From the IMG/VR virus record IMGVR_UViG_3300008448_012223: a stretch of DNA of 64,000 nucleotides; one strand, written 5' to 3'. The notes below the pieces were generated by a model. The model saw nothing but the letters and a program-made list of their open reading frames with translations. It was not told the DNA's origin and did not search any database. Position 1 is the first letter of the stretch. Every line of letters begins with the position of its first letter. This DNA comes from a virus. The position numbers and the translations under genes were made by a program. Shown one piece after another: positions 318 through 11,663 of this stretch.

Positions 318-995
318 CTAATTGTCACAGACTACCCGAAAACCATTAGTGCAGTATTTGAAGTCACCGAAAGAGTTTATGCAAAACGTAGAGTCGCAAC
401 ATCCATCATGGGATAGATAGGAGCCACCCCGTAGTATTTCACTTTGACACCATTCGTAAACATTGCCACTCATATCGTATAATCCCCAAGCATTAGGTAA
501 TTTTTGTCCTACAGGATGAGTTGTGTCTTCAGAATTTCCACCATACCAAGCGTAATCTCCTGATTGGCGATAATTATTACCAAAATACCAGCGAGTAGTA
601 GTCCCCGCGCGGCAAGCATATTCCCACTCTGATTCTGTGGGTAAGCGGTAATTCTTACCAGTCACTTGACTTAGTTCTTGACAAAAAGCTATGGCATTGT
701 TATAACTAACACTTTCCACTGGATTCTGAGGATTGCCTTGAAAGTGGGAAGGATTAGTTCCTATTACCGCTTCATATTGTGCCTGAGTCACTGGATATTT
801 TCCTATTGCAAAAGTTGCGTCAGGAACTTTTACCATTTCAATCTGAATTGCGAGTTTAGGGTCCAAACCCGCAAGTTTAGCTAATTCAACCAGATCATCT
901 GTATCTGCATCAGCAAGACGCAGATGCAGTTCTTCAACTTCTCGAATAAAATCTGTATCACTCATTTTTGCTTCTAAATAATTGTTAGTTGACAA
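318..995 (-). CDS. FGE-sulfatase (SUMF1)/C-type lectin-fold protein with N-terminal extension
   Basis: Motifs KYPVTQ, NPVESVS, RLPTESEWEYACRAG, PNAWGLYDMSGNVYEWC, RGGS, GFRVV. The real start may be the second Met (MSDTDF). Confidence 0.9.
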   Translation of the reverse strand: MSTNNYLEAKMSDTDFIREVEELHLRLADADTDDLVELAKLAGLDPKLAIQIEMVKVPDATFAIGKYPVTQAQYEAVIGTNPSHFQGNPQNPVESVSYNNAIAFCQELSQVTGKNYRLPTESEWEYACRAGTTTRWYFGNNYRQSGDYAWYGGNSEDTTHPVGQKLPNAWGLYDMSGNVYEWCQSEILRGGSYLSHDGCCDSTFCINSFGDFKYCTNGFRVVCDN

Positions 996-1025
996 CTAAT
1001 AGCTGATAGCCAAGCGAACGCAGAG

Positions 1026-1733
1026 TTAAGAACTGTAATCATCTATGTGATCCAGAGACGTTTGAAAACCAGACCAGTATATAGCGGTCAGAAGCTTTCC
1101 TTTTTCCTCTTTAGTCTGTAGATTCTCTAGGTATTCTATTACTTCAAATAAAATCATGTCTTTATACGGTTCAGGCAACTGTGCTTCCCACATCTCCTCA
1201 GCTAATAGTATTGGTCTAATAGTTTCTGCCACTCGAAAACCGATACTGTCGTAGCGGCTGCCGCGGCGTATGTAGTCGATGCGAAACGAACGGAAGTTAA
1301 GAGGATCGGTGCAGTAGGAACCGCCTCGTATTACAACCTGCTGGCACCATTCCCAGACGTTGCCGCGCATATCATAAAGTCCCCAAGCATTGGGCTTCTT
1401 CTGTCCTACAGGATGAGTTGTCTGCTGAGAATTTCCTTTATACCAAGCATAATCTCCATAATAGTCGCTAGTTGTCCCCGCACGATAGGCATATTCCCAT
1501 TCAGCCTCCGTTGGTAAGCGATATTGTTTCCCTGTTGCTTTACTTAATTTCTGGCAAAAAGTTTCAGCATCATCATAGCTGACATTTTCTACTGGATTTT
1601 GAGGATTACCTTGAAAATAAGATGGATTAACTCCCATTACCGCCTGATATTGTACCTGAGTCACTGGATATTTGCCAATCCTAAAACTTTTAATTTCTTG
1701 ACTCGCTGGTATCTCTACCATTTTAATTGCCAT
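1026..1733 (-). CDS. FGE-sulfatase/CLec-fold protein with C-terminal helical extension
   Basis: RLPTEAEWEYA, NAWGLYDMRGNVWEWC, RGGS, GFRV; about 65-aa tail shared with 1805..2578. Confidence 0.9.
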   Translation of the reverse strand: MAIKMVEIPASQEIKSFRIGKYPVTQVQYQAVMGVNPSYFQGNPQNPVENVSYDDAETFCQKLSKATGKQYRLPTEAEWEYAYRAGTTSDYYGDYAWYKGNSQQTTHPVGQKKPNAWGLYDMRGNVWEWCQQVVIRGGSYCTDPLNFRSFRIDYIRRGSRYDSIGFRVAETIRPILLAEEMWEAQLPEPYKDMILFEVIEYLENLQTKEEKGKLLTAIYWSGFQTSLDHIDDYSS

Positions 1734-1804
1734 TTCTTACTCCTAAGTGCTTTATTTTAACAACTGATAGCTAACTTTTTGGGAGGGGCCCTACCCTAAT
1801 CATC

Positions 1805-2578
1805 TTAATCATCCAGACACGCTTGAAACCCTGACCAGTATATAGCAGTTATAAACTTCTCTTTTTCCTCTTTAGTCTGCATAGTCTCTAGATATTCTAC
1901 TACTTCAGATAAAATCATATCTTTATACGGTTCAGGTAACTGCGCTTCCCACATCTCTTCAGCTAATAGTGTTGGTCTAATAGTTTGTACTACCCGAAAA
2001 CCGCCATTGTTGAAGCGGAGCCCGCTGGGAGGGCTGCTGTCGCGATTCGCGGAACGGCATAAATAAGGAAGGTCGTTCCAGGAACCGCCCCGCAGACAAC
2101 CATCTTCACACCATTCCCAGACGTTGCCAATCATGTCATAGAGTCCCCAAGCATTAGGTAATTTTTGCCCTACAGGATGGGTTATCAGCCAAGCATTAGG
2201 TGATTTTGCTGCGCCTACAGGATAGGTTATCAGCCCAGAGTTGTCTTCGTACCAGGCGTAATCTCCTAATTGATTAGCATCATCTCCGAAATAATAGTCA
2301 GTAGTAGTCCCAGCACGACAGGCATATTCCCATTCCTCTTGTGTAGGGAGACGATACTTATGGCTAGTCACTCCATTTAATTTTATGCAAAAGGCTTGAG
2401 CGTCTTCCCAACTAACCATTTCTACTGGATTTTGCGGATTACCTTGAAAATAAGATGGATTAACTCCCATTACCGCCTGATATTGCTCCTGAGTCACTGG
2501 ATATTTACCAATCTCAAAACTACCGATTTTTTGATCCTGACTTGATGGTACCTCTACCATTTCAATTTTAATCATCAT
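1805..2578 (-). CDS. FGE-sulfatase/CLec-fold protein with C-terminal helical extension
   Basis: Same motif set; internal duplication LITYPVGAAKSPNAW/LITHPVGQKLPNAW. Confidence 0.9.
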   Translation of the reverse strand: MMIKIEMVEVPSSQDQKIGSFEIGKYPVTQEQYQAVMGVNPSYFQGNPQNPVEMVSWEDAQAFCIKLNGVTSHKYRLPTQEEWEYACRAGTTTDYYFGDDANQLGDYAWYEDNSGLITYPVGAAKSPNAWLITHPVGQKLPNAWGLYDMIGNVWEWCEDGCLRGGSWNDLPYLCRSANRDSSPPSGLRFNNGGFRVVQTIRPTLLAEEMWEAQLPEPYKDMILSEVVEYLETMQTKEEKEKFITAIYWSGFQACLDD

Positions 2579-2636
2579 TTTTACTCCTAGCTTTGTTTTT
2601 ACTGATAACTAATAACCAACTGACGCTAAAAGATAA

Positions 2637-2927
2637 TCAAAGCAACTTAAATCCTTTTTTTGTGCCTTTGTCCGATCCAAATTCTCGCACAGCACCTTTT
2701 AGGGATTCTCTTACAGAAGCCCTTGACATTCTAGACTTTTTCCCTAGTTCCCAATTGACTACACTTGCATTTCCACAAGCGTCAACACTTTCAAGACTCT
2801 CAAACCAACCGTCGTTTGTGTGAGCGTAAGATACCATTACAGCACCATTAGGAAACAGGGTGCCACTAAATTGATATTCAGTATCGTCAAAGTCTTTAGC
2901 GAGAAAAGTGACTTGTTGAATGATCAT
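2637..2927 (-). CDS. Hypothetical protein
   Basis: 96-aa ORF with the same leader style as its neighbours. Confidence 0.65.
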   Translation of the reverse strand: MIIQQVTFLAKDFDDTEYQFSGTLFPNGAVMVSYAHTNDGWFESLESVDACGNASVVNWELGKKSRMSRASVRESLKGAVREFGSDKGTKKGFKLL

Positions 2928-2956
2928 TATTTTTACTGCTGATAACTAATAATTGA

Positions 2957-3514
2957 CTAATTGTCACAGACTACCCGAAAACCGAGATTGTTGTTTTGGT
3001 AGTCGCGGCGATAGTTGTCGTAATGGCAGTAAGCGGAACGGCAGAGATCAGGATCGCTGTACCAAGAACCCCCCCGATTCACGCCGTCTTCGCACCACTC
3101 CCAAACATTGCCGCTCATGTCATAAAGTCCCCAAGCATTGGGTTTTTTCTGTCCCACAGAATGAGTTGTCCCCTGAGAATTTGCGTAATACCAAGCGTAA
3201 TCTTCTAATTGATTAGCATCATCACCGAAATAAAAGCGAGTAGTAGTCCCTGCACGACAAGCATACTCCCATTCCGCTTCTGTGGGGAGGCGATAGGTTT
3301 TCCCGGTTATTTGACTCAATTTTTGGCAAAAGGCTTGAGCATCATTCCAACTAACCTTTTCTACCGGATTTTGGGGATTGTTTTGAAACCGAGAGGGATT
3401 GTTTCCCATTACTGCTTCATATTGCGCCTGAGTAATTGGATATTTCCCAATCGCAAAACTACTAATTCCTTGATCCTGACTTGATGGTATCTCTACCATT
3501 TCAATTTTAATCAT
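2957..3514 (-). CDS. FGE-sulfatase/CLec-fold protein, DGR-like variable C-terminus
   Basis: Full motif set; ends GGSW-(26 codons)-GFRVVCDN. Confidence 0.9.
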   Translation of the reverse strand: MIKIEMVEIPSSQDQGISSFAIGKYPITQAQYEAVMGNNPSRFQNNPQNPVEKVSWNDAQAFCQKLSQITGKTYRLPTEAEWEYACRAGTTTRFYFGDDANQLEDYAWYYANSQGTTHSVGQKKPNAWGLYDMSGNVWEWCEDGVNRGGSWYSDPDLCRSAYCHYDNYRRDYQNNNLGFRVVCDN

Positions 3515-3558
3515 TATTTTTACTCCTAAGATATAACTGATAAATAATTGATTAGTAA

Positions 3559-4119
3559 CTAATTATCACAAACTACCCGAAAACCGTAAGCGTTGAAGTT
3601 GTCGTTGCGGCGGACGTTAAAGAAGTCGCGAATCGCGGTACGGCAGTTATTAGGAAAGTCGGCCCAGGAACCGCCCCGCAGCACAACTTCTTGGCACCAC
3701 TCCTCAATATTGCCGTGCATATCATAGAGTCCCCAAGCATTAGGTAATTTTTGCCCTACAGGATGGGTTGTTTCCTGAGAATTTCCCCAATACCAAGCGT
3801 AATCTCCTAATTGATTAGCATCATTACCAAAATAATAGACAGTATCAGTTCCCGCACGGCAAGCATACTCCCATTCCGCTTCTGTCGGTAAGCGATAAGT
3901 TTTGCCGGTCATTTCACTCAATTTCTGACAAAAAACTTGGGCATTGTTCCAACTTACACTTTCCACTGGATTTTGAGGATTGTCTTGAAACCAAGAGGGA
4001 TTGGTTCCCATTACTGCTTCATATTGTTCCTGAGTCACTGGATATTTACCAATCGCAAAACTACTGATTTTTTGATCCTGACTTGGTGGTACCTCTACCA
4101 TTTCAATTTTAATTGTCAT
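3559..4119 (-). CDS. FGE-sulfatase/CLec-fold protein, DGR-like variable C-terminus
   Basis: Full motif set; ends GGSW-(26 codons)-GFRVVCDN; RBS TAGGAG. Confidence 0.9.
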   Translation of the reverse strand: MTIKIEMVEVPPSQDQKISSFAIGKYPVTQEQYEAVMGTNPSWFQDNPQNPVESVSWNNAQVFCQKLSEMTGKTYRLPTEAEWEYACRAGTDTVYYFGNDANQLGDYAWYWGNSQETTHPVGQKLPNAWGLYDMHGNIEEWCQEVVLRGGSWADFPNNCRTAIRDFFNVRRNDNFNAYGFRVVCDN

Positions 4120-6095: not shown

Positions 6096-6554
6096 ATGTG
6101 TAAATTACAATCAACGATGTCTCTTATGAGCCCACCAATTACTATAGTAATAACGGATACGCCCAGCGACCTCATCGCTGTAGATGGAGGTAATCTATCA
6201 GAGGCTGCTAGTGCTATTGGTATACGTGACAAGATAGGTAGCCTTCAGGGAGAACAGCGACTAAGTGCATTAGTGCTTAAAGATGTTCCTCCTGGCCCGC
6301 CTGGTCCGCCTCTATTAATTAAAGGTAATCTTAATTCTGCAGGCGATCTGCCTACTAACCCCTCTATAGGACATGGTTACCTAATTCAAGGTATTCTTTA
6401 CACTTGGTCGGGTATAGAGTGGATTAATGGCGGACAACTACAGGGCCCTATTGGGCTATCCGCTTATCAAGTAGCCCTGAGCAACGGTTTTGTTGGAACT
6501 GAACAAGACTGGCTAGAAAGCTTAAAAAAACAATGGAATAGCACTAACTGGTAG
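6096..6554 (+). CDS. Collagen-like phage tail/virion accessory protein
   Basis: PPGPPGPP, QGPIGLSAYQVA...GFVGTEQDWLESLK are typical of phage collagen-repeat fibre proteins. Confidence 0.7.
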   Translation: MCKLQSTMSLMSPPITIVITDTPSDLIAVDGGNLSEAASAIGIRDKIGSLQGEQRLSALVLKDVPPGPPGPPLLIKGNLNSAGDLPTNPSIGHGYLIQGILYTWSGIEWINGGQLQGPIGLSAYQVALSNGFVGTEQDWLESLKKQWNSTNW

Positions 6555-6559
6555 AATTT

Positions 6560-7132
6560 ATGACAACTTTTAAAGCATTTCGAGAAACGGCACTCCCTGG
6601 AACTCTTCAGCCTTATGCGATATATTTTGTAGCTCCGGCATCAAAGCCGAATTATGTCGAAATTTACGTTTCCGATGCTACTGGCTCTTCTGCCAAAAGA
6701 GTTCTCACTGACACTGATATTCAGGCATTAATTAACGCTTCGATTTCTGGTTTAGGCGGGGAAATGCCAGTCGTAGCTGATATAGCAGCAAGAAATGCTT
6801 TAGCTTCGACACTCACCAGAGACACTCAGGTTTTAGTGTTAAATGCAACTGGAGATTCCACAGTAACAAGTGGTGCAGCCACTTATTTGTACCGATTTTC
6901 TACGACTTCTTGGATTAAATTAAACGAAGCTGAATCAATGGATTTAGTTTTGCAGTGGGCAAATATTCAAGGTCGACCAACTAGCTCGGCTTCTGCTATT
7001 GATGCGGCCGTGAGTAATAGCCATACCCATACCAATAAAACTCAGCTTGATAAAATTGGGGAAAATGCTAATGGCTTGTTAACTTATAGCAATTTGCTTC
7101 CTACAACAGGCTGGAATAGTGTAGCTTGGTAA
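6560..7132 (+). CDS. Phage virion/fibre-associated protein
   Basis: VVADIAARNAL...YLYRFSTTSWIKL and HTHTNKTQLDKIGE...LLTY motifs seen in phage fibre modules; tight operon spacing. Confidence 0.6.
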   Translation: MTTFKAFRETALPGTLQPYAIYFVAPASKPNYVEIYVSDATGSSAKRVLTDTDIQALINASISGLGGEMPVVADIAARNALASTLTRDTQVLVLNATGDSTVTSGAATYLYRFSTTSWIKLNEAESMDLVLQWANIQGRPTSSASAIDAAVSNSHTHTNKTQLDKIGENANGLLTYSNLLPTTGWNSVAW

Positions 7133-7133
7133 G

Positions 7134-7634
7134 ATGAGTGAATTTAGAGCACAAAAAGTAATCAGCAGTTTGCCCGCGTTACAAGCAAATACTCTTTATT
7201 TTGTCAGAACGGGTGACGGGTTTGATTTATTTTGTAGTGATCAAACTGGTAGCGTTGCTCACAAACTAAACGATGGAGATGCACGCATTCAGCGAGAACC
7301 TTTTTTATTGCGAGGTGCAAACACTGGCAGTGTGGCCATTACTTTGCCTATTTTTTACACGGAGAATATAACGTTACTGAGGATTGTAAACGCTCAAAAT
7401 ACTTTAACAGGATCTAGCGGAAGTGCTGTAGTTAACCTGCTTTTTGGTAGTGGGGCGAGTTTTACTACGATTCCGGGATTAGGCAGCAGAACGATCACGA
7501 CAAGCCCTACGAATCATTCAGTTAGTGGTAATGGGCAATTAATCACTGCTGCTCAACAGATACGAATCGAATTTGCTTCTTTTACAAGTGGACCCGTTGA
7601 CGTTGGCTTAACATTTGAATATTCACGAGGATAA
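7134..7634 (+). CDS. Phage virion/fibre-associated protein
   Basis: N-terminus (LPALQANTLYFV) resembles that of the upstream gene; beta-rich. Confidence 0.55.
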   Translation: MSEFRAQKVISSLPALQANTLYFVRTGDGFDLFCSDQTGSVAHKLNDGDARIQREPFLLRGANTGSVAITLPIFYTENITLLRIVNAQNTLTGSSGSAVVNLLFGSGASFTTIPGLGSRTITTSPTNHSVSGNGQLITAAQQIRIEFASFTSGPVDVGLTFEYSRG

Positions 7635-7636
7635 TT

Positions 7637-8068
7637 ATGTCTAATAGCTTGACCGCTCAAAGTTTATTTTTAAATAGCCCTGATTATTTGGAAAGATACC
7701 AAATTGCTTTAACAAATGTAGCTGGGACTTTTAATGAAGTATCAACTAATCAAGCTTTCTTTGATAGCCAGATTAAGCCTAGCTTGATTAATGATCAATC
7801 CGTCAAGGTTTATGTTTACAAAAGGATTTTGTCAGAAATGATCGTTTTTAATCCTTATGTTAAGTTAAATGTAGCTAAGTTAGGCATGACCGCCGCTGTG
7901 TTCGGAGAAACCCCAAGACTTGCGGTTTCTGTTGATAATGAAGGGAAATTAAATCCGATTGCTGAATCGGCAATTTTACAAGCAGTGACAGAACAATTCA
8001 ATGACGACAATTTGTTATCTCAATTGTTAAGTCAAGATATCCTTAAAATAACAGCACTTTTTAACTAG
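7637..8068 (+). CDS. Hypothetical protein
   Basis: 143-aa ORF in the same operon. Confidence 0.65.
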   Translation: MSNSLTAQSLFLNSPDYLERYQIALTNVAGTFNEVSTNQAFFDSQIKPSLINDQSVKVYVYKRILSEMIVFNPYVKLNVAKLGMTAAVFGETPRLAVSVDNEGKLNPIAESAILQAVTEQFNDDNLLSQLLSQDILKITALFN

Positions 8069-8070
8069 CT

Positions 8071-8853
8071 ATGCTAATAATTGATGCCAGTCCTCAGTTA
8101 TTTAATCCTCTTATAGCCAGTCCTTTGCTGTGGCTAGATGGATTTGATTCAGCTACTTATTCAAATGGAATCTGGGCGGACAAAAGTGGATTTGGCAGAA
8201 ATTTTTCTGGCGGCTTTGTTAATTTTCGTCCAAGTTTTTTGTCAAACGGAATTAATAGCCGAGGAAGTTTATCTTTTGATGGGGTAAATGATCGTTTGCA
8301 AAGGATTCCTGAAGCATGGGCTTATCAATACCCACTCACGATATTTGTCCTCTTTCGGGCTTCAAGTTATGTGCCTTATAGTTCTTTGCTAGATTTTTAT
8401 GGAGATGTATCCGGTATTACCGCTGGGTATACTTTATTAATCAAAAATAACTTAAGAAGTGCGATTTATTGCACGAGTACGAGTGGACAACCTAATTATG
8501 ATGGCAGTGGAGCCGTGAGTTATTCTTTGAATGAAACTCACCTTTTTGTAGCCACAATTACTAATAATAGAATCGAATCTTGGGGGAATGGTGCTGCGGA
8601 CGGACTTTTTTCTTTCACCCAAACATTAAGGACTAATCTAGGAACCAGCCCTCTAATAATAGGAGCTAGTACTCTCTTTACTCGATACAATCCTGTTTTG
8701 AAAGCGACAGTATTTATTGTACCTAGTGATTTGAGTGCTACTAGAAGGCAAGTCCTTGAAGGGCATTTCGCCTGGGAAGCGGGAATAGGTTCGCGGCTTC
8801 CTACAAATCATCCTTTTAGGACGACTCGACCTTTACCTAGTAATTGGGTGTAA
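8071..8853 (+). CDS. LamG/concanavalin-A-like domain virion protein (putative receptor-binding)
   Basis: LWLDGFD...WADKSGFGRN, INSRGSLSFDG.ND.L and a terminal LE.HFAW..GI...LP.NHPF motif. Confidence 0.7.
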   Translation: MLIIDASPQLFNPLIASPLLWLDGFDSATYSNGIWADKSGFGRNFSGGFVNFRPSFLSNGINSRGSLSFDGVNDRLQRIPEAWAYQYPLTIFVLFRASSYVPYSSLLDFYGDVSGITAGYTLLIKNNLRSAIYCTSTSGQPNYDGSGAVSYSLNETHLFVATITNNRIESWGNGAADGLFSFTQTLRTNLGTSPLIIGASTLFTRYNPVLKATVFIVPSDLSATRRQVLEGHFAWEAGIGSRLPTNHPFRTTRPLPSNWV

Positions 8854-10720: not shown

Positions 10721-10937
10721 TTGTGGTGCGACCCTAACTGGGGGGCCGCGTTTATCTAGTATGCCCGTTACTTACCCTTTCTGATTAACCTCTTTGTATT
10801 CCTGTCCCACGCCGCTACATAGAAACTATGTAACAGCCTGTTAAGCAAAATTACAAGGAAGATTAATCCACCAATCTGCGAAAGCAATAAAATCACCATC
10901 TTCCTCCTGAGTTTAATCCTCTATAAGGTTTACCGTA

Positions 10938-10990
10938 TGCAGGATAGTGGAGTCGGTTACATCATTCTACCTATCCTTATTGTGGCGCGG
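10938..10990 (-). pseudogene. Decayed third tRNA copy
   Basis: TGCAGGATAGTGGAGTCG matches the tRNA 3' end and CCTATCCTTATTGTGG resembles the 5' end/flank; the centre is missing. Confidence 0.4.
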
Positions 10991-11048
10991 GCCTCGTTAT
11001 TATGGCGCGGGCCTCGTTCTATATACTACAACTATTAAGTCTACAGTG

Positions 11049-11261
11049 TTATAGCCTAGATGTAGAGTAGTGTAACACACTACTACATGTATCGTCGGCG
11101 GGCTCTCCAGCAGACATGATTGATACCCATACCAGCGCTATGACGTATATTAACGCGACAAGGCCCCATCTATCGCGGGGCCCTACTTTAGGAATTAGAT
11201 ACATCAGGAATACTATGTACACGGTAAAGACTGCATTTAATGCTAATACTGTTATTGACAT
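11049..11261 (-). CDS. Small membrane protein
   Basis: 70 aa, two hydrophobic stretches, AAGGAG RBS. Confidence 0.6.
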   Translation of the reverse strand: MSITVLALNAVFTVYIVFLMYLIPKVGPRDRWGLVALIYVIALVWVSIMSAGEPADDTCSSVLHYSTSRL

Positions 11262-11663
11262 GCAATTATCTCCTTAATAATTAAGTGGGGACTCCCTACT
11301 ACTTACTCTTGTCTATCTCTCTGGCTCGCATTTGATAGCTTAATGTTTATTTAAATATGGTTAAATATGGCGATATTTGCCGTATTTTCATCGCTGTATT
11401 AAAAACCACAATTATTATTGTTTGAATTGTTACATACTCTAACTGTATGTTATGGGCATATTTATCTGAGGTGAGAGAAGCTGTGGAATATTTAATTGAT
11501 AAGTATAACTTATCAATATACAATACTACACTATATACTAAGTGACGCTAGCATAGATTACAATCAATAGTTAATAGGTTTGTCTCAGGGGGTAGAATGG
11601 CACTTTGATAGTCATTGATAAACTATTCTTATATAGCGTTGTGGGTTTTGCCCTAACGCTGTA

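What the first reader, a model, noticed from the sequence alone, without database searches (positions are those of the whole stretch)
318..4119. Five tandem CLec/FGE genes carrying DGR-type hypervariable ends, with no RT or template repeat in view
Seen: between GGSW and GFRV, 2957..3514 and 3559..4119 both have 26 codons, and in each 25 end in C/T (22 of 25 in 1805..2578). The scaffold codons CCT, TGC CGT and CGC CGC are kept while positions 1-2 of the other codons differ. Established: this is the footprint of adenine mutagenesis on an AAC/AAT-rich DGR template, and cyanobacterial DGRs target FGE-type CLec domains. Inference: the phage collected several independently diversified binders, either captured from host DGR loci or still mutagenised in trans by a host or remote phage RT/TR. 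They have no signal peptide and are not in the tail module, so they may be intracellular ligand-binding decoys.
Basis: partly seen in the sequence, partly recalled or inferred. Interest (0 to 1): 0.72.

Follow-up and report, generated by a model that had tools for sequence, protein, structure and literature searches.

The report
Fossil host-templated variable lectin genes
A virus of the bloom-forming cyanobacterium Microcystis carries five tandem, stripped-down copies of its host's hypermutable ligand-binding (C-type-lectin/FGE) domain. Their variable tips bear the stamp of the host's diversity-generating retroelement templates, but these five copies are now fixed, not mutating.

Summary
Five minus-strand PF03781 (FGE/CLec) genes each have a 24-26-codon stretch between GGS[WY] and GFRV. 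In it 19-25 codons end in C/T, against about 50% in the rest of each gene.

The DGR reading of the footprint is supported by a direct match. Microcystis genomes hold canonical DGR cassettes (CLec target, TR, 352-aa RT). Their template repeats align to the phage VRs, and g2-g5 have T at every TR codon that ends in T.

The window's VRs are not in a live TR/VR relationship. Against six host TRs they show 7-12 non-adenine mismatches plus codon indels, and g1 is fully degenerate. They lack the 17-nt 3' segment that host VRs share with the TR. Exact copies (0 differences) are present in runs released in 2017, 2019 and 2021. Phages 3-10% diverged carry recognisably the same alleles.

No RT or TR occurs in the window or in four complete relatives. 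The host TR core has no hit anywhere in IMG/VR.

The scaffolds are 76-92.5% nt identical to host CLec genes and interleave with them in a tree.

Best reading: host-related, minimised DGR variable-protein domains with fossil VRs, kept as a binder repertoire.

One sister gene in related phage contigs differs only at TR adenine sites. That leaves open a host DGR rewriting phage genes in trans.

The scan's note e1-5874540 flags a further CLec gene elsewhere in this genome.

The parts
3559..4119 (-). g5: 186-aa standalone CLec/FGE-fold protein (minimised DGR variable-protein domain)
   Evidence: PF03781 E 5e-36. Best PDB match is 2y3c, Treponema TvpA, E 3e-29. 85% nt identity to the host gene in L233.
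3586..3663 (-). g5 variable region: 26 codons, 25 ending in C/T
   Evidence: Against host TR_G015: 14 A-site mismatches, 7 non-A mismatches and a 1-codon indel. 0 differences in contigs of runs X5, X12 and X10.
2957..3514 (-). g4: 185-aa CLec/FGE-fold protein
   Evidence: PF03781 E 2e-40. Gene nt 55-429 are 92.5% identical to the Microcystis G016 multi-CLec gene L233, and g4 is its sister in the tree (95/89).
2984..3061 (-). g4 variable region: 26 codons, 25 ending in C/T
   Evidence: Against TR_G005: 12 A-site mismatches, 8 non-A mismatches and a 1-codon indel. 0 differences in X5 contig 2958-3239.
2637..2927 (-). 96-aa ORF of no known family, lying inside the array
   Evidence: No Pfam or PHROG hit. 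Also present in L133, and a 36%-identical ORF occurs in L198.
1805..2578 (-). g3: 257-aa CLec protein with a 15-aa internal duplication and a 65-aa phage-specific C-terminal extension
   Evidence: PF03781 E 3e-37. 45-bp tandem repeat at 2147-2235. Alignment.
2003..2077 (-). g3 variable region: 25 codons, 22 ending in C/T
   Evidence: Against TR_G015: 18 A-site and 12 non-A mismatches. The same allele, at 88-93% identity, sits in contigs whose scaffolds are 93-96% identical.
1026..1733 (-). g2: 235-aa CLec protein with a 71-aa C-terminal extension (ortholog group of Ma-LMM01 gp037, annotated 'kinase')
   Evidence: PF03781 E 8e-33. phrog_18508. The extension has no match in 17 Microcystis genomes.
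1242..1313 (-). g2 variable region: 24 codons, 22 ending in C/T, one scaffold codon lost
   Evidence: 0 differences in contigs of X5, X12 and X10.
318..995 (-). g1: CLec protein (225 aa from TTG; orthologs start at MVKVP, about 172 aa)
   Evidence: PF03781 E 6e-33. Ortholog start positions.
345..416 (-). g1 degenerate variable region: 24 codons, 19 ending in C/T, P..CRS scaffold lost
   Evidence: 23 A-site and 32 non-A mismatches to the best TR. VR third-position identity to the other paralogs is only 0.50-0.58.

Best explanation
The array is a set of at least five paralogous, host-related genes. Each encodes little more than the ligand-binding C-type-lectin (FGE-fold) domain of a Microcystis DGR variable protein.

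Compared with the host domains, the phage copies lack the N-terminal strand. They also lack a loop of about 22 residues before RGGSW, and the host C-terminus VFGRTL.

The C-terminal variable regions were written by adenine-mutagenic reverse transcription from Microcystis-type template repeats. At least two template variants were involved: a G015-like one for g5 and a G005/G014-like one for g4. This happened either in the host before gene exchange, or long ago in trans.

In this phage lineage the regions are now fossil. They have no cognate template, no RT, and no 3' template-homologous segment. They evolve at about the background rate and have been unchanged in the field for years.

The array changes by duplication, deletion and recombination among paralogs and with host genes, which gives different phages different sets of fixed binders.

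Shown here: the family and fold, the template match, the host kinship, allele stability, and the absence of RT/TR in relatives.

Inferred: the proteins act as a repertoire of fixed-specificity binders during infection. The most plausible role is as free copies of the host's hypervariable sensor domain that compete with or mask its ligands. A role as accessory adhesins is the main alternative.
For: Family and fold:
- PF03781 in all five genes.
- The best solved relative is the DGR variable protein TvpA, 2y3c, E 3e-29.

Host DGRs:
- DGR-type RTs (352-369 aa ORFs) occur in 5 of 17 Microcystis genomes.
- The cassette is CLec target, TR, then RT.
- Six TRs were extracted.

Template match:
- In 37 unique 25-codon phage VRs, the mismatch rate is 0.555 at TR-A sites and 0.152 at non-A sites.
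- The third base is T at 86% of TR-T codons and 10% of TR-C codons.
- g2-g5 have T at each TR-T codon (sequences).
- Among the window paralogs the normal codon-position pattern is inverted in the VR: 0.46/0.47/0.79 against 0.86/0.85/0.64 in the scaffold.

Fossil state:
- 7-12 non-A mismatches plus indels for g2-g5, and 32 for g1. Host VRs have a median of 0.5 and phage VRs a median of 4.
- The homology to the TR ends at GTCTG, without the GTATTCGGGAGAACTCT that host VRs share with the TR.
- L133, 99.1% identical overall, has identical VRs.
- Contigs of runs from 2017, 2019 and 2021 span the VRs with 0 differences, and none of the 40 best-supported variant positions shown lies inside a VR (153 more were not shown).
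- Sixteen runs from five studies hold at least half of the stretch's sampled words; those 16 hold 95-99%.
- Orthologs 3-10% diverged in the scaffold keep 82-93% VR identity.

No RT or TR:
- None in four complete relatives.
- No TR elsewhere in the window.
- No hit to the TR core in IMG/VR, with a positive control in host loci.

Host kinship: 76-92.5% nt identity and an interleaved tree.
Against: - The rest of this phage's genome (about 120 kb) could not be searched, because no whole genome is held. A distant RT/TR in this particular phage is excluded only by analogy with relatives.
- Only 17 species-representative Microcystis genomes were searched for TRs. An unsampled 26-codon TR could fit g4 and g5 better. 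A conserved 26-codon host VR shows that such a template once existed.
- Logan contigs drop rare variants, so low-frequency VR variants in populations are not excluded. The one raw-read run did not contain this phage.
- g4 differs from its 90%-identical orthologs mostly in the 3' part of the VR. That is what a partial retrohoming event would produce.
- A sister gene family in related contigs shows adenine-only differences, so trans-homing into phage DNA may exist in this group.
- Nothing here tests the proposed binding function.
Confidence: 0.68

Rival explanations
1. Live remote targets. The five VRs are still rewritten, rarely, by the DGR of the infected Microcystis cell acting in trans on replicating phage DNA. 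The alleles seen would then be the current winners of selection.
For: - Phage VR flanks (CGGGGCGGTTCCTGG and GGTTTTCGGGTAGTCTG) are identical to the TR flanks.
- In related Fukuivirus-like contigs a different CLec gene differs between 95-99%-identical phages at 11-17 VR positions. For L251 vs L255, 11 of 11 are at TR adenine sites, P about 2e-5. Those VRs have 0 non-A mismatches to host TR_G015, and no RT/TR is found on phage DNA.
- g4's last variable codons (AAC AAC AAT CTC) look like barely mutated template.
Against: - The window's VRs have 7-32 non-A mismatches and codon indels against all six TRs.
- They lack the 3' TR-homologous segment.
- They are identical across a 99%-identical contig and in runs released in 2017, 2019 and 2021.
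- Their orthologs diverge in the VR at about the scaffold rate.
Confidence: 0.1
2. The phage has its own DGR. An RT, accessory gene and TR lie elsewhere in the unsearched roughly 120 kb of this phage genome and serve the array as remote targets.
For: - Only 64 kb of the genome could be read here.
Against: - No RVT_1 hit at E<=1 in four complete genomes of the same genus. The only TR-like matches in them lie at the VR ends of their CLec genes, apart from one short remnant in Ma-LMM01.
- No contig among 2.9 million IMG/VR contigs holds the TR core, even in degenerate form.
- None of the scan's notes returned by two look-ups on this genome (16 of 59 seen) mentions an RT. This is a lead only.
Confidence: 0.05
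3. Not DGR-derived. The NNY codon bias reflects selection for Asn/Asp/Tyr/Ser/Phe-rich binding loops, or local mutation bias, in an ordinary fast-evolving lectin.
For: NNY codons encode the residues favoured in many binding sites. Positive selection also concentrates changes at codon positions 1-2.
Against: - Selection on amino acids does not fix the choice between C and T. Yet T sits at the template's T-ending codons in 86% of cases and at 10% elsewhere, and at all of them in g2-g5.
- Synonymous positions of the scaffold codons match the TR.
- VR third positions are more conserved than scaffold third positions.
- The closest solved relative is a DGR variable protein.
Confidence: 0.02
4. Functional rival. 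The proteins are virion-associated or released adhesins (accessory receptor-binding modules), not intracellular decoys.
For: - The array is transcribed divergently from an operon that starts at 6096. Its first product has tail-fibre-type motifs (phrog_15437, phrog_3904), and 8071-8853 hits a virion structural PHROG.
- In Ma-LMM01, gp037-gp041 (the CLec gene plus that operon's start) form their own expression cluster (PMC5780444).
- The founding phage DGR target, Mtd, is a CLec-fold receptor-binding protein (established knowledge).
Against: - There is no fibre-attachment or trimerisation domain. The proteins are bare 172-186-aa domains, or carry a 65-71-aa tail of unknown role.
- Their nearest kin are cytosolic-looking host multidomain proteins such as GUN4-CLec and coiled-coil-CLec.
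- No virion proteome was available.
Confidence: 0.25

Closest known systems
TvpA, Treponema denticola DGR variable protein (PDB 2y3c), the FGE-type CLec fold of DGR targets
   Same: It is the best solved-structure relative by sequence (E 3e-29). It has the FGE-sulfatase fold and a C-terminal variable region of NNY codons on a conserved scaffold.
   Different: TvpA sits in a DGR cassette with its own TR and RT and is a lipoprotein. The phage proteins have no TR or RT in cis, lack the N-terminal strand and one loop, and their VRs no longer match any template.
Cyanobacterial DGR variable proteins, remote targets and 'VP homologs' (Vallota-Eastman 2020, PMC7517822); Microcystis cassettes found here (L131, L129, L128)
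   Same: They share the same CLec subfamily (76-92.5% nt identity), the same VR scaffold (G..P..CRSA.R....RR..R....GFRVV) and the same template fingerprint. Like remote targets, the phage genes lie far from any RT.
   Different: The genes sit on the genome of a virulent phage, not on the genome that holds the RT. They are bare domains instead of C-terminal modules of multidomain proteins. They lack the 3' GTATTCGGGAGAACTCT segment shared by host VRs and the TR.
Bordetella phage BPP-1 Mtd/DGR
   Same: A phage-borne CLec-fold protein whose C-terminal residues were diversified by adenine mutagenesis.
   Different: BPP-1 carries its own bRT, Avd and TR. Mtd is a trimeric tail-fibre tip with IMH and hairpin elements. 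Here there is no phage RT/TR, no fibre domain, and the alleles are fixed.
Ma-LMM01 gp037, MaMV-DC ORF40L, phrog_18508 (annotated 'kinase' or 'serine/threonine protein kinase')
   Same: These are direct orthologs of g2/g3: the same locus, the same C-terminal extension, and 93-98% nt identity just after the VR.
   Different: The published annotation as a kinase is a misnomer carried over from kinase-CLec fusions. No kinase domain is present. The isolates have 1-3 copies at this locus, against 5-7 here.
DGR-diversified CLec 'antigen sensors' of conflict systems in multicellular bacteria (Dore 2024, PMC10907252)
   Same: The same kind of diversified CLec sensor domain. That paper proposes that cyanobacterial clade-5E DGR targets sense antigens.
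   Different: Those are host sensors coupled to effector and adaptor domains. The phage copies have no effector part. That is what suggests, but does not show, a decoy or masking role.

Membership tests
FGE-sulfatase / C-type-lectin fold (Pfam PF03781) | Significant match to the family profile above the gathering score | tested here: met
   All five genes score 114.6-139.8 bits against a cut-off of 23.3.
Catalytic formylglycine-generating enzyme | Conserved C-terminal catalytic cysteine pair and a full-length domain | tested here: inconclusive
   Matches to solved FGEs cover only query residues about 42-145 and stop before the C-terminal region, which in these genes is the variable region. The best hit is a non-enzymatic DGR protein. 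The residues were not checked one by one.
DGR variable protein (target gene) | Variable region at the 3' end of the gene, with variability at codon positions 1-2 on a fixed scaffold | tested here: met
   In g1, g4 and g5 the VR ends 8 codons before the stop. g2 and g3 have a 65-71-aa tail after it.
DGR variable protein (target gene) | A cognate template repeat that differs from the VR (almost) only at adenines | tested here: not met
   Against six Microcystis TRs the non-A mismatches are: g5 7 plus a 1-codon indel, g4 8 plus a 1-codon indel, g3 12, g2 10 plus indels, g1 32. There is no TR in the window. Host VRs have a median of 0.5 non-A mismatches.
DGR variable protein (target gene) | A DGR reverse transcriptase in the same genome | not testable with these tools
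   No whole genome is held for the window. There is none in four complete relatives or on the related contigs.
DGR variable protein (target gene) | 3' target-recognition element: TR/VR homology that runs past the VR (IMH-like), with or without a hairpin | tested here: not met
   Host VRs and TRs share GTATTCGGGAGAACTCT after GTCTGC. The phage genes diverge there into GAC AAT TAG. There is no significant hairpin after g2-g5 (z -0.4 to 0.8).
DGR variable protein (target gene) | Hypervariability of the VR within or between populations | tested here: not met
   VRs are identical in L133. Contigs of three runs (released 2017, 2019, 2021) show 0 differences. Caveat: contigs hide rare variants.
Protein kinase (the database annotation of the orthologs) | A protein kinase catalytic domain | tested here: not met
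   Only PF03781 is found. The name of phrog_18508 is inherited.

The most novel reading that the evidence does not exclude
In this phage group, the DGR of the infected Microcystis cell rewrites phage-borne CLec genes in trans. This would be hypermutation across genomes, with the RT and template on the host chromosome and the target on a virulent phage. The window's array would be the archive of such events.

The evidence does not exclude this. A full-length CLec gene in related phage contigs differs between near-identical phages only at the adenine sites of a host template (11 of 11). It also has 0 non-adenine mismatches to that template. No phage DNA examined holds an RT or a TR.
Probability: 0.25. 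Interest if true: 0.88.

Novelty: new variant of a known kind. Interest (0 to 1): 0.6.

Why it matters
DGR surveys start from the reverse transcriptase, so targets on genomes without an RT are invisible to them. Here a lytic phage of a major toxic-bloom organism keeps an expanding, shuffling array of its host's hypervariable sensor domain, and the genes are mis-annotated as 'kinase' in every isolate genome.

Three things follow.
1. It ties Microcystis DGRs, whose role is unknown, to phage-host conflict.
2. It gives concrete, cheap-to-express candidates for finding out what these lectin domains bind.
3. Through the sister gene with adenine-only differences, it makes the question 'can a DGR act on a co-resident foreign genome?' testable with existing isolates (Ma-LMM01, the MaMV phages) and DGR-positive or DGR-negative hosts.

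For the five genes themselves the sober result is that they are frozen products, not a working diversification system.

Tried and rejected
- TR inside the window: relaxed blastn of the five VR regions found only the paralogs.
- Whole-genome search of the window's own genome: not possible, because none is held.
It returned only 40-58% relatives and missed the close Microcystis kin, which were found later by a DNA search of the genus. I first read this as 'no close host relative' and then dropped that reading.
- A 26-codon TR that would fit g4 and g5: exact-pattern scans gave one unrelated hit in IMG/VR and three unrelated GC-rich hits in JGI metagenomes. This negative is weak, because only exact matches are found.
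- 'All phage genes share one loop deletion, so VR diversity must have arisen in the phage': rejected. Some phage-contig genes (L198, L137:7938) keep the host loop, and loop state is scattered on the tree.
- L199 vs L198 as proof of retrohoming (98% identical scaffolds, with VRs from two different TR types): rejected as proof. The sequence downstream of the VR differs too (61%), so ordinary recombination explains it.
- Hairpins after the VRs: none significant in g2-g5. g1 has one (z -2.7). Host VRs also lack an obvious one, so this criterion is uninformative for this clade.
- Structure prediction of g5 with a 23-row alignment: mean pLDDT 51, too poor for a fold search, so none was run.
- Raw-read run X22: it held only host-like reads on the conserved scaffold (no reads at 99% or above), so it says nothing about variants in the phage.
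- RNA-library contigs (X5) cover the array, but that alone does not show transcription.
- Literature: no paper in the library links Ma-LMM01 or Microcystis phages to DGRs or FGE domains.

Full report
**What is there**

The window is a Fukuivirus-like Microcystis myophage, about 80% nt identical to Ma-LMM01 and the MaMV isolates over this region. No whole genome is held for it.

On the minus strand lie five FGE-sulfatase/CLec genes: g1 318-995, g2 1026-1733, g3 1805-2578, g4 2957-3514 and g5 3559-4119. All hit PF03781 at E 6e-33 to 2e-40. They are 61-67% identical to g1 and share an almost invariant scaffold.

Between RGGS[WY] and GFRV, g4 and g5 have 26 codons with 25 ending in C/T. g3 has 22 of 25, g2 22 of 24 and g1 19 of 24. 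The rest of each gene has about 50%.

Among g2-g5 the usual pattern of codon-position conservation is inverted in this stretch. Identity is 0.46/0.47/0.79 in the VR and 0.86/0.85/0.64 in the scaffold.

The best solved relative is the DGR variable protein TvpA (2y3c, E 3e-29), not a catalytic FGE. The database label 'kinase' (phrog_18508, Ma-LMM01 gp037) has no basis in the sequence.

**The template exists, but in the host**

Five of 17 species-representative Microcystis genomes carry RTs of DGR size and score.

Around them are canonical cassettes. In G015 a 316-aa CLec-only target is followed by an A-rich repeat and a 352-aa RT, and a 1239-aa GUN4-CLec protein is a second target. Six distinct TRs were extracted.

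They align codon for codon with the phage VRs. For example, TR_G015 reads GGC AAC AAT CCT AAT AAC TGC CGT TCC GCG ATT CGC (AAC)4 CGC CGC GAC AAC CGC AAC AAC AAT AAC GGT TTT CGG GTA GTC TGC.

Over 37 unique 25-codon VRs from this phage family, mismatches to the TR run at 0.555 at adenine sites and 0.152 elsewhere. The third base is T at 86% of the codons where the TR has T, and at 10% where it has C.

Selection on amino acids cannot explain that. It is the fingerprint of copying from this template family. g2-g5 show T at every TR-T codon. g5 carries the G015-type motif GCG ATT CGC, and g4 the G005/G014-type TGG TAC ... GCT TAC.

**The five window VRs are fossil**

Against the best of the TRs:

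| Gene | Adenine-site mismatches | Non-adenine mismatches | Indels |
|---|---|---|---|
| g5 | 14 | 7 | one extra codon |
| g4 | 12 | 8 | one extra codon |
| g3 | 18 | 12 | none |
| g2 | 15 | 10 | yes |
| g1 | 23 | 32 | none |

Host VRs have a median of 0.5 non-adenine mismatches and phage VRs a median of 4.

Homology to the TR stops at GTCTG. The next 17 nt, GTATTCGGGAGAACTCT, which every host VR shares with its TR, are replaced by GAC AAT TAG. No significant hairpin follows g2-g5.

An IMG/VR contig 99.1% identical over 7.9 kb has the same five VRs.

The g4-g5 stretch is present at 95-99% of its sampled words in 16 runs of five studies, 2017-2024. Contigs of three runs from different studies (released 2017, 2019, 2021) span the VRs with zero differences. 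For g4 this holds in the 2017 run only among the pieces shown. None of the 40 variant positions shown falls inside a VR (153 more were not shown).

Orthologs whose scaffolds are 3-10% diverged carry recognisably the same alleles, with VR identity 0.82-0.93. Re-homing would have randomised about 28 sites.

**No RT or TR on phage DNA**

- Four complete genomes of the genus have no RVT_1 hit at E<=1. The host TR matches them only at the VR ends of their CLec genes, apart from one short VR remnant in Ma-LMM01.
- The same holds for ten related IMG/VR contigs.
- A degenerate TR-core pattern has no match in 2.9 million IMG/VR contigs. Among all loci fetched it hits only the host DGR loci.
- The rest of this particular phage genome could not be searched.

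**Kinship with host genes**

- g4 (nt 55-429) is 92.5% identical to a Microcystis G016 gene. That is more than its identity to its own neighbours. g5 is 85% identical to host genes and g1-g3 76-79%.
- That host gene is a single ORF with at least four tandem CLec domains, each with its own VR.
- In a tree of the scaffold region, host and phage rows interleave. The host label needs at least 3 changes on well-supported branches, and g4 is sister to a host domain. Host sampling was biased, so the direction of transfer is open.
- The window proteins are minimised. They lack the host N-terminal strand and a loop of about 22 residues before RGGSW. A few phage-contig genes still have both.
- Array content differs between near-identical phages. 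L133 has two extra genes, and the isolates have one to three CLec genes at this locus plus one elsewhere. Pairs with at least 93% identical scaffolds have either near-identical or unrelated VRs. Often the downstream sequence is swapped too, which points to recombination.

**A lead outside the window**

A different, full-length CLec gene (276 aa in Ma-LMM01) is absent from this window. Its orthologs lie in Fukuivirus-like contigs that are syntenic with window 14-25 kb.

L251 and L255 differ at 11 VR positions, all at adenine sites of host TR_G015 and none elsewhere. Their flanks differ by 1-5%. Both VRs have zero non-adenine mismatches to that host TR. A third allele, L277, differs at 14-17 adenine sites and 2-3 others.

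Host scaffolds are only 75-82% identical to this gene. A conversion tract from host DNA would therefore have to be confined to the VR.

This is what trans-homing by a host DGR would produce. Own-DGR phages not yet sampled, or very strong diversifying selection, are not excluded.

**Function**

Nothing here tests it.

- The neighbours on the same strand are unknowns.
- The divergent operon from 6096 has tail-fibre-like and virion-structural hits.
- In Ma-LMM01, gp037-gp041 form a separate expression cluster (PMC5780444).
- Cyanobacterial DGR CLec targets have been proposed to be antigen sensors of conflict systems (PMC10907252).

I rank the possibilities as follows:
1. Free sensor-domain copies that compete for or mask ligands. 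This is an inference.
2. Accessory adhesins.
3. Something else.

**Verdict**

The DGR origin is now backed by the actual template family. The result is a new variant of a known kind: RT-less, host-templated, fixed variable-protein domains arrayed in a virulent phage.

Noticed in passing
L251, L255, L277, L250, L254 (IMG/VR contigs); orthologs L005-L008 in MaMV-DC, CH01, DL01 and Ma-LMM01: A full-length CLec gene of related phages differs between 95-99%-identical contigs almost only at adenine sites of a host template. For L251 vs L255 it is 11 of 11 sites, with 0 non-A mismatches to TR_G015. This is a candidate for a host DGR acting on phage DNA.
   Followed up: partly
L233 (Microcystis G016, C1:2635688-2638794): One host ORF of more than 1000 aa consists of at least four tandem CLec domains separated by proline-rich linkers. 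Each domain has its own variable region of different length (20, 24 and 26 codons).
   Followed up: partly
window 2147-2235: An in-frame 45-bp tandem duplication inside g3 repeats 15 residues of the CLec scaffold (LITYPVGAAKSPNAW / LITHPVGQKLPNAW). The same insertion is present in L135.
   Followed up: no
window 1026-1229 and 1805-1990: The 65-71-aa C-terminal extension of g2 and g3 (TIRP.LLAEEMWEAQLPEPYKDMIL...) is absent from 17 Microcystis genomes. Among phages it is far better conserved (93-98% nt) than the CLec domain it follows (71-73%).
   Followed up: partly
L133 7541-8101 and about 10750-11324; left edge of the window: A 99%-identical contig has one extra CLec gene between g4 and g3, and another beyond the window's first base. 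This phage's array may therefore hold six or more genes, and it changes by unequal recombination between paralogs.
   Followed up: partly
L214-L223, L230 (nine or more Microcystis genomes): A 26-codon host variable region is almost identical (one or two bases differ) across many Microcystis species representatives. The host also keeps frozen VRs, and a 26-codon template must once have existed.
   Followed up: no
window 6096-8853 (+ strand): The operon divergent from the array starts with a 152-aa protein that has a collagen-like GPPGPPGPP run and tail-fibre-type C-terminal motifs. It also includes a virion-structural PHROG hit.
   Followed up: partly
L211 (IMG/VR contig G022, 40000-49687): A Mu-like element (683-aa transposase and 246-aa MuB-like ATPase genes, both read by eye) lies next to a host-type 330-aa CLec target that ends in VVCVFGRTL, with the full TR-homologous 3' segment. 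It may be host flank or cargo.
   Followed up: no
Ma-LMM01 W03:29001-29071 (near gp038): A short remnant of a CLec variable region without a gene. It is evidence of gene loss in the array of the type phage.
   Followed up: no
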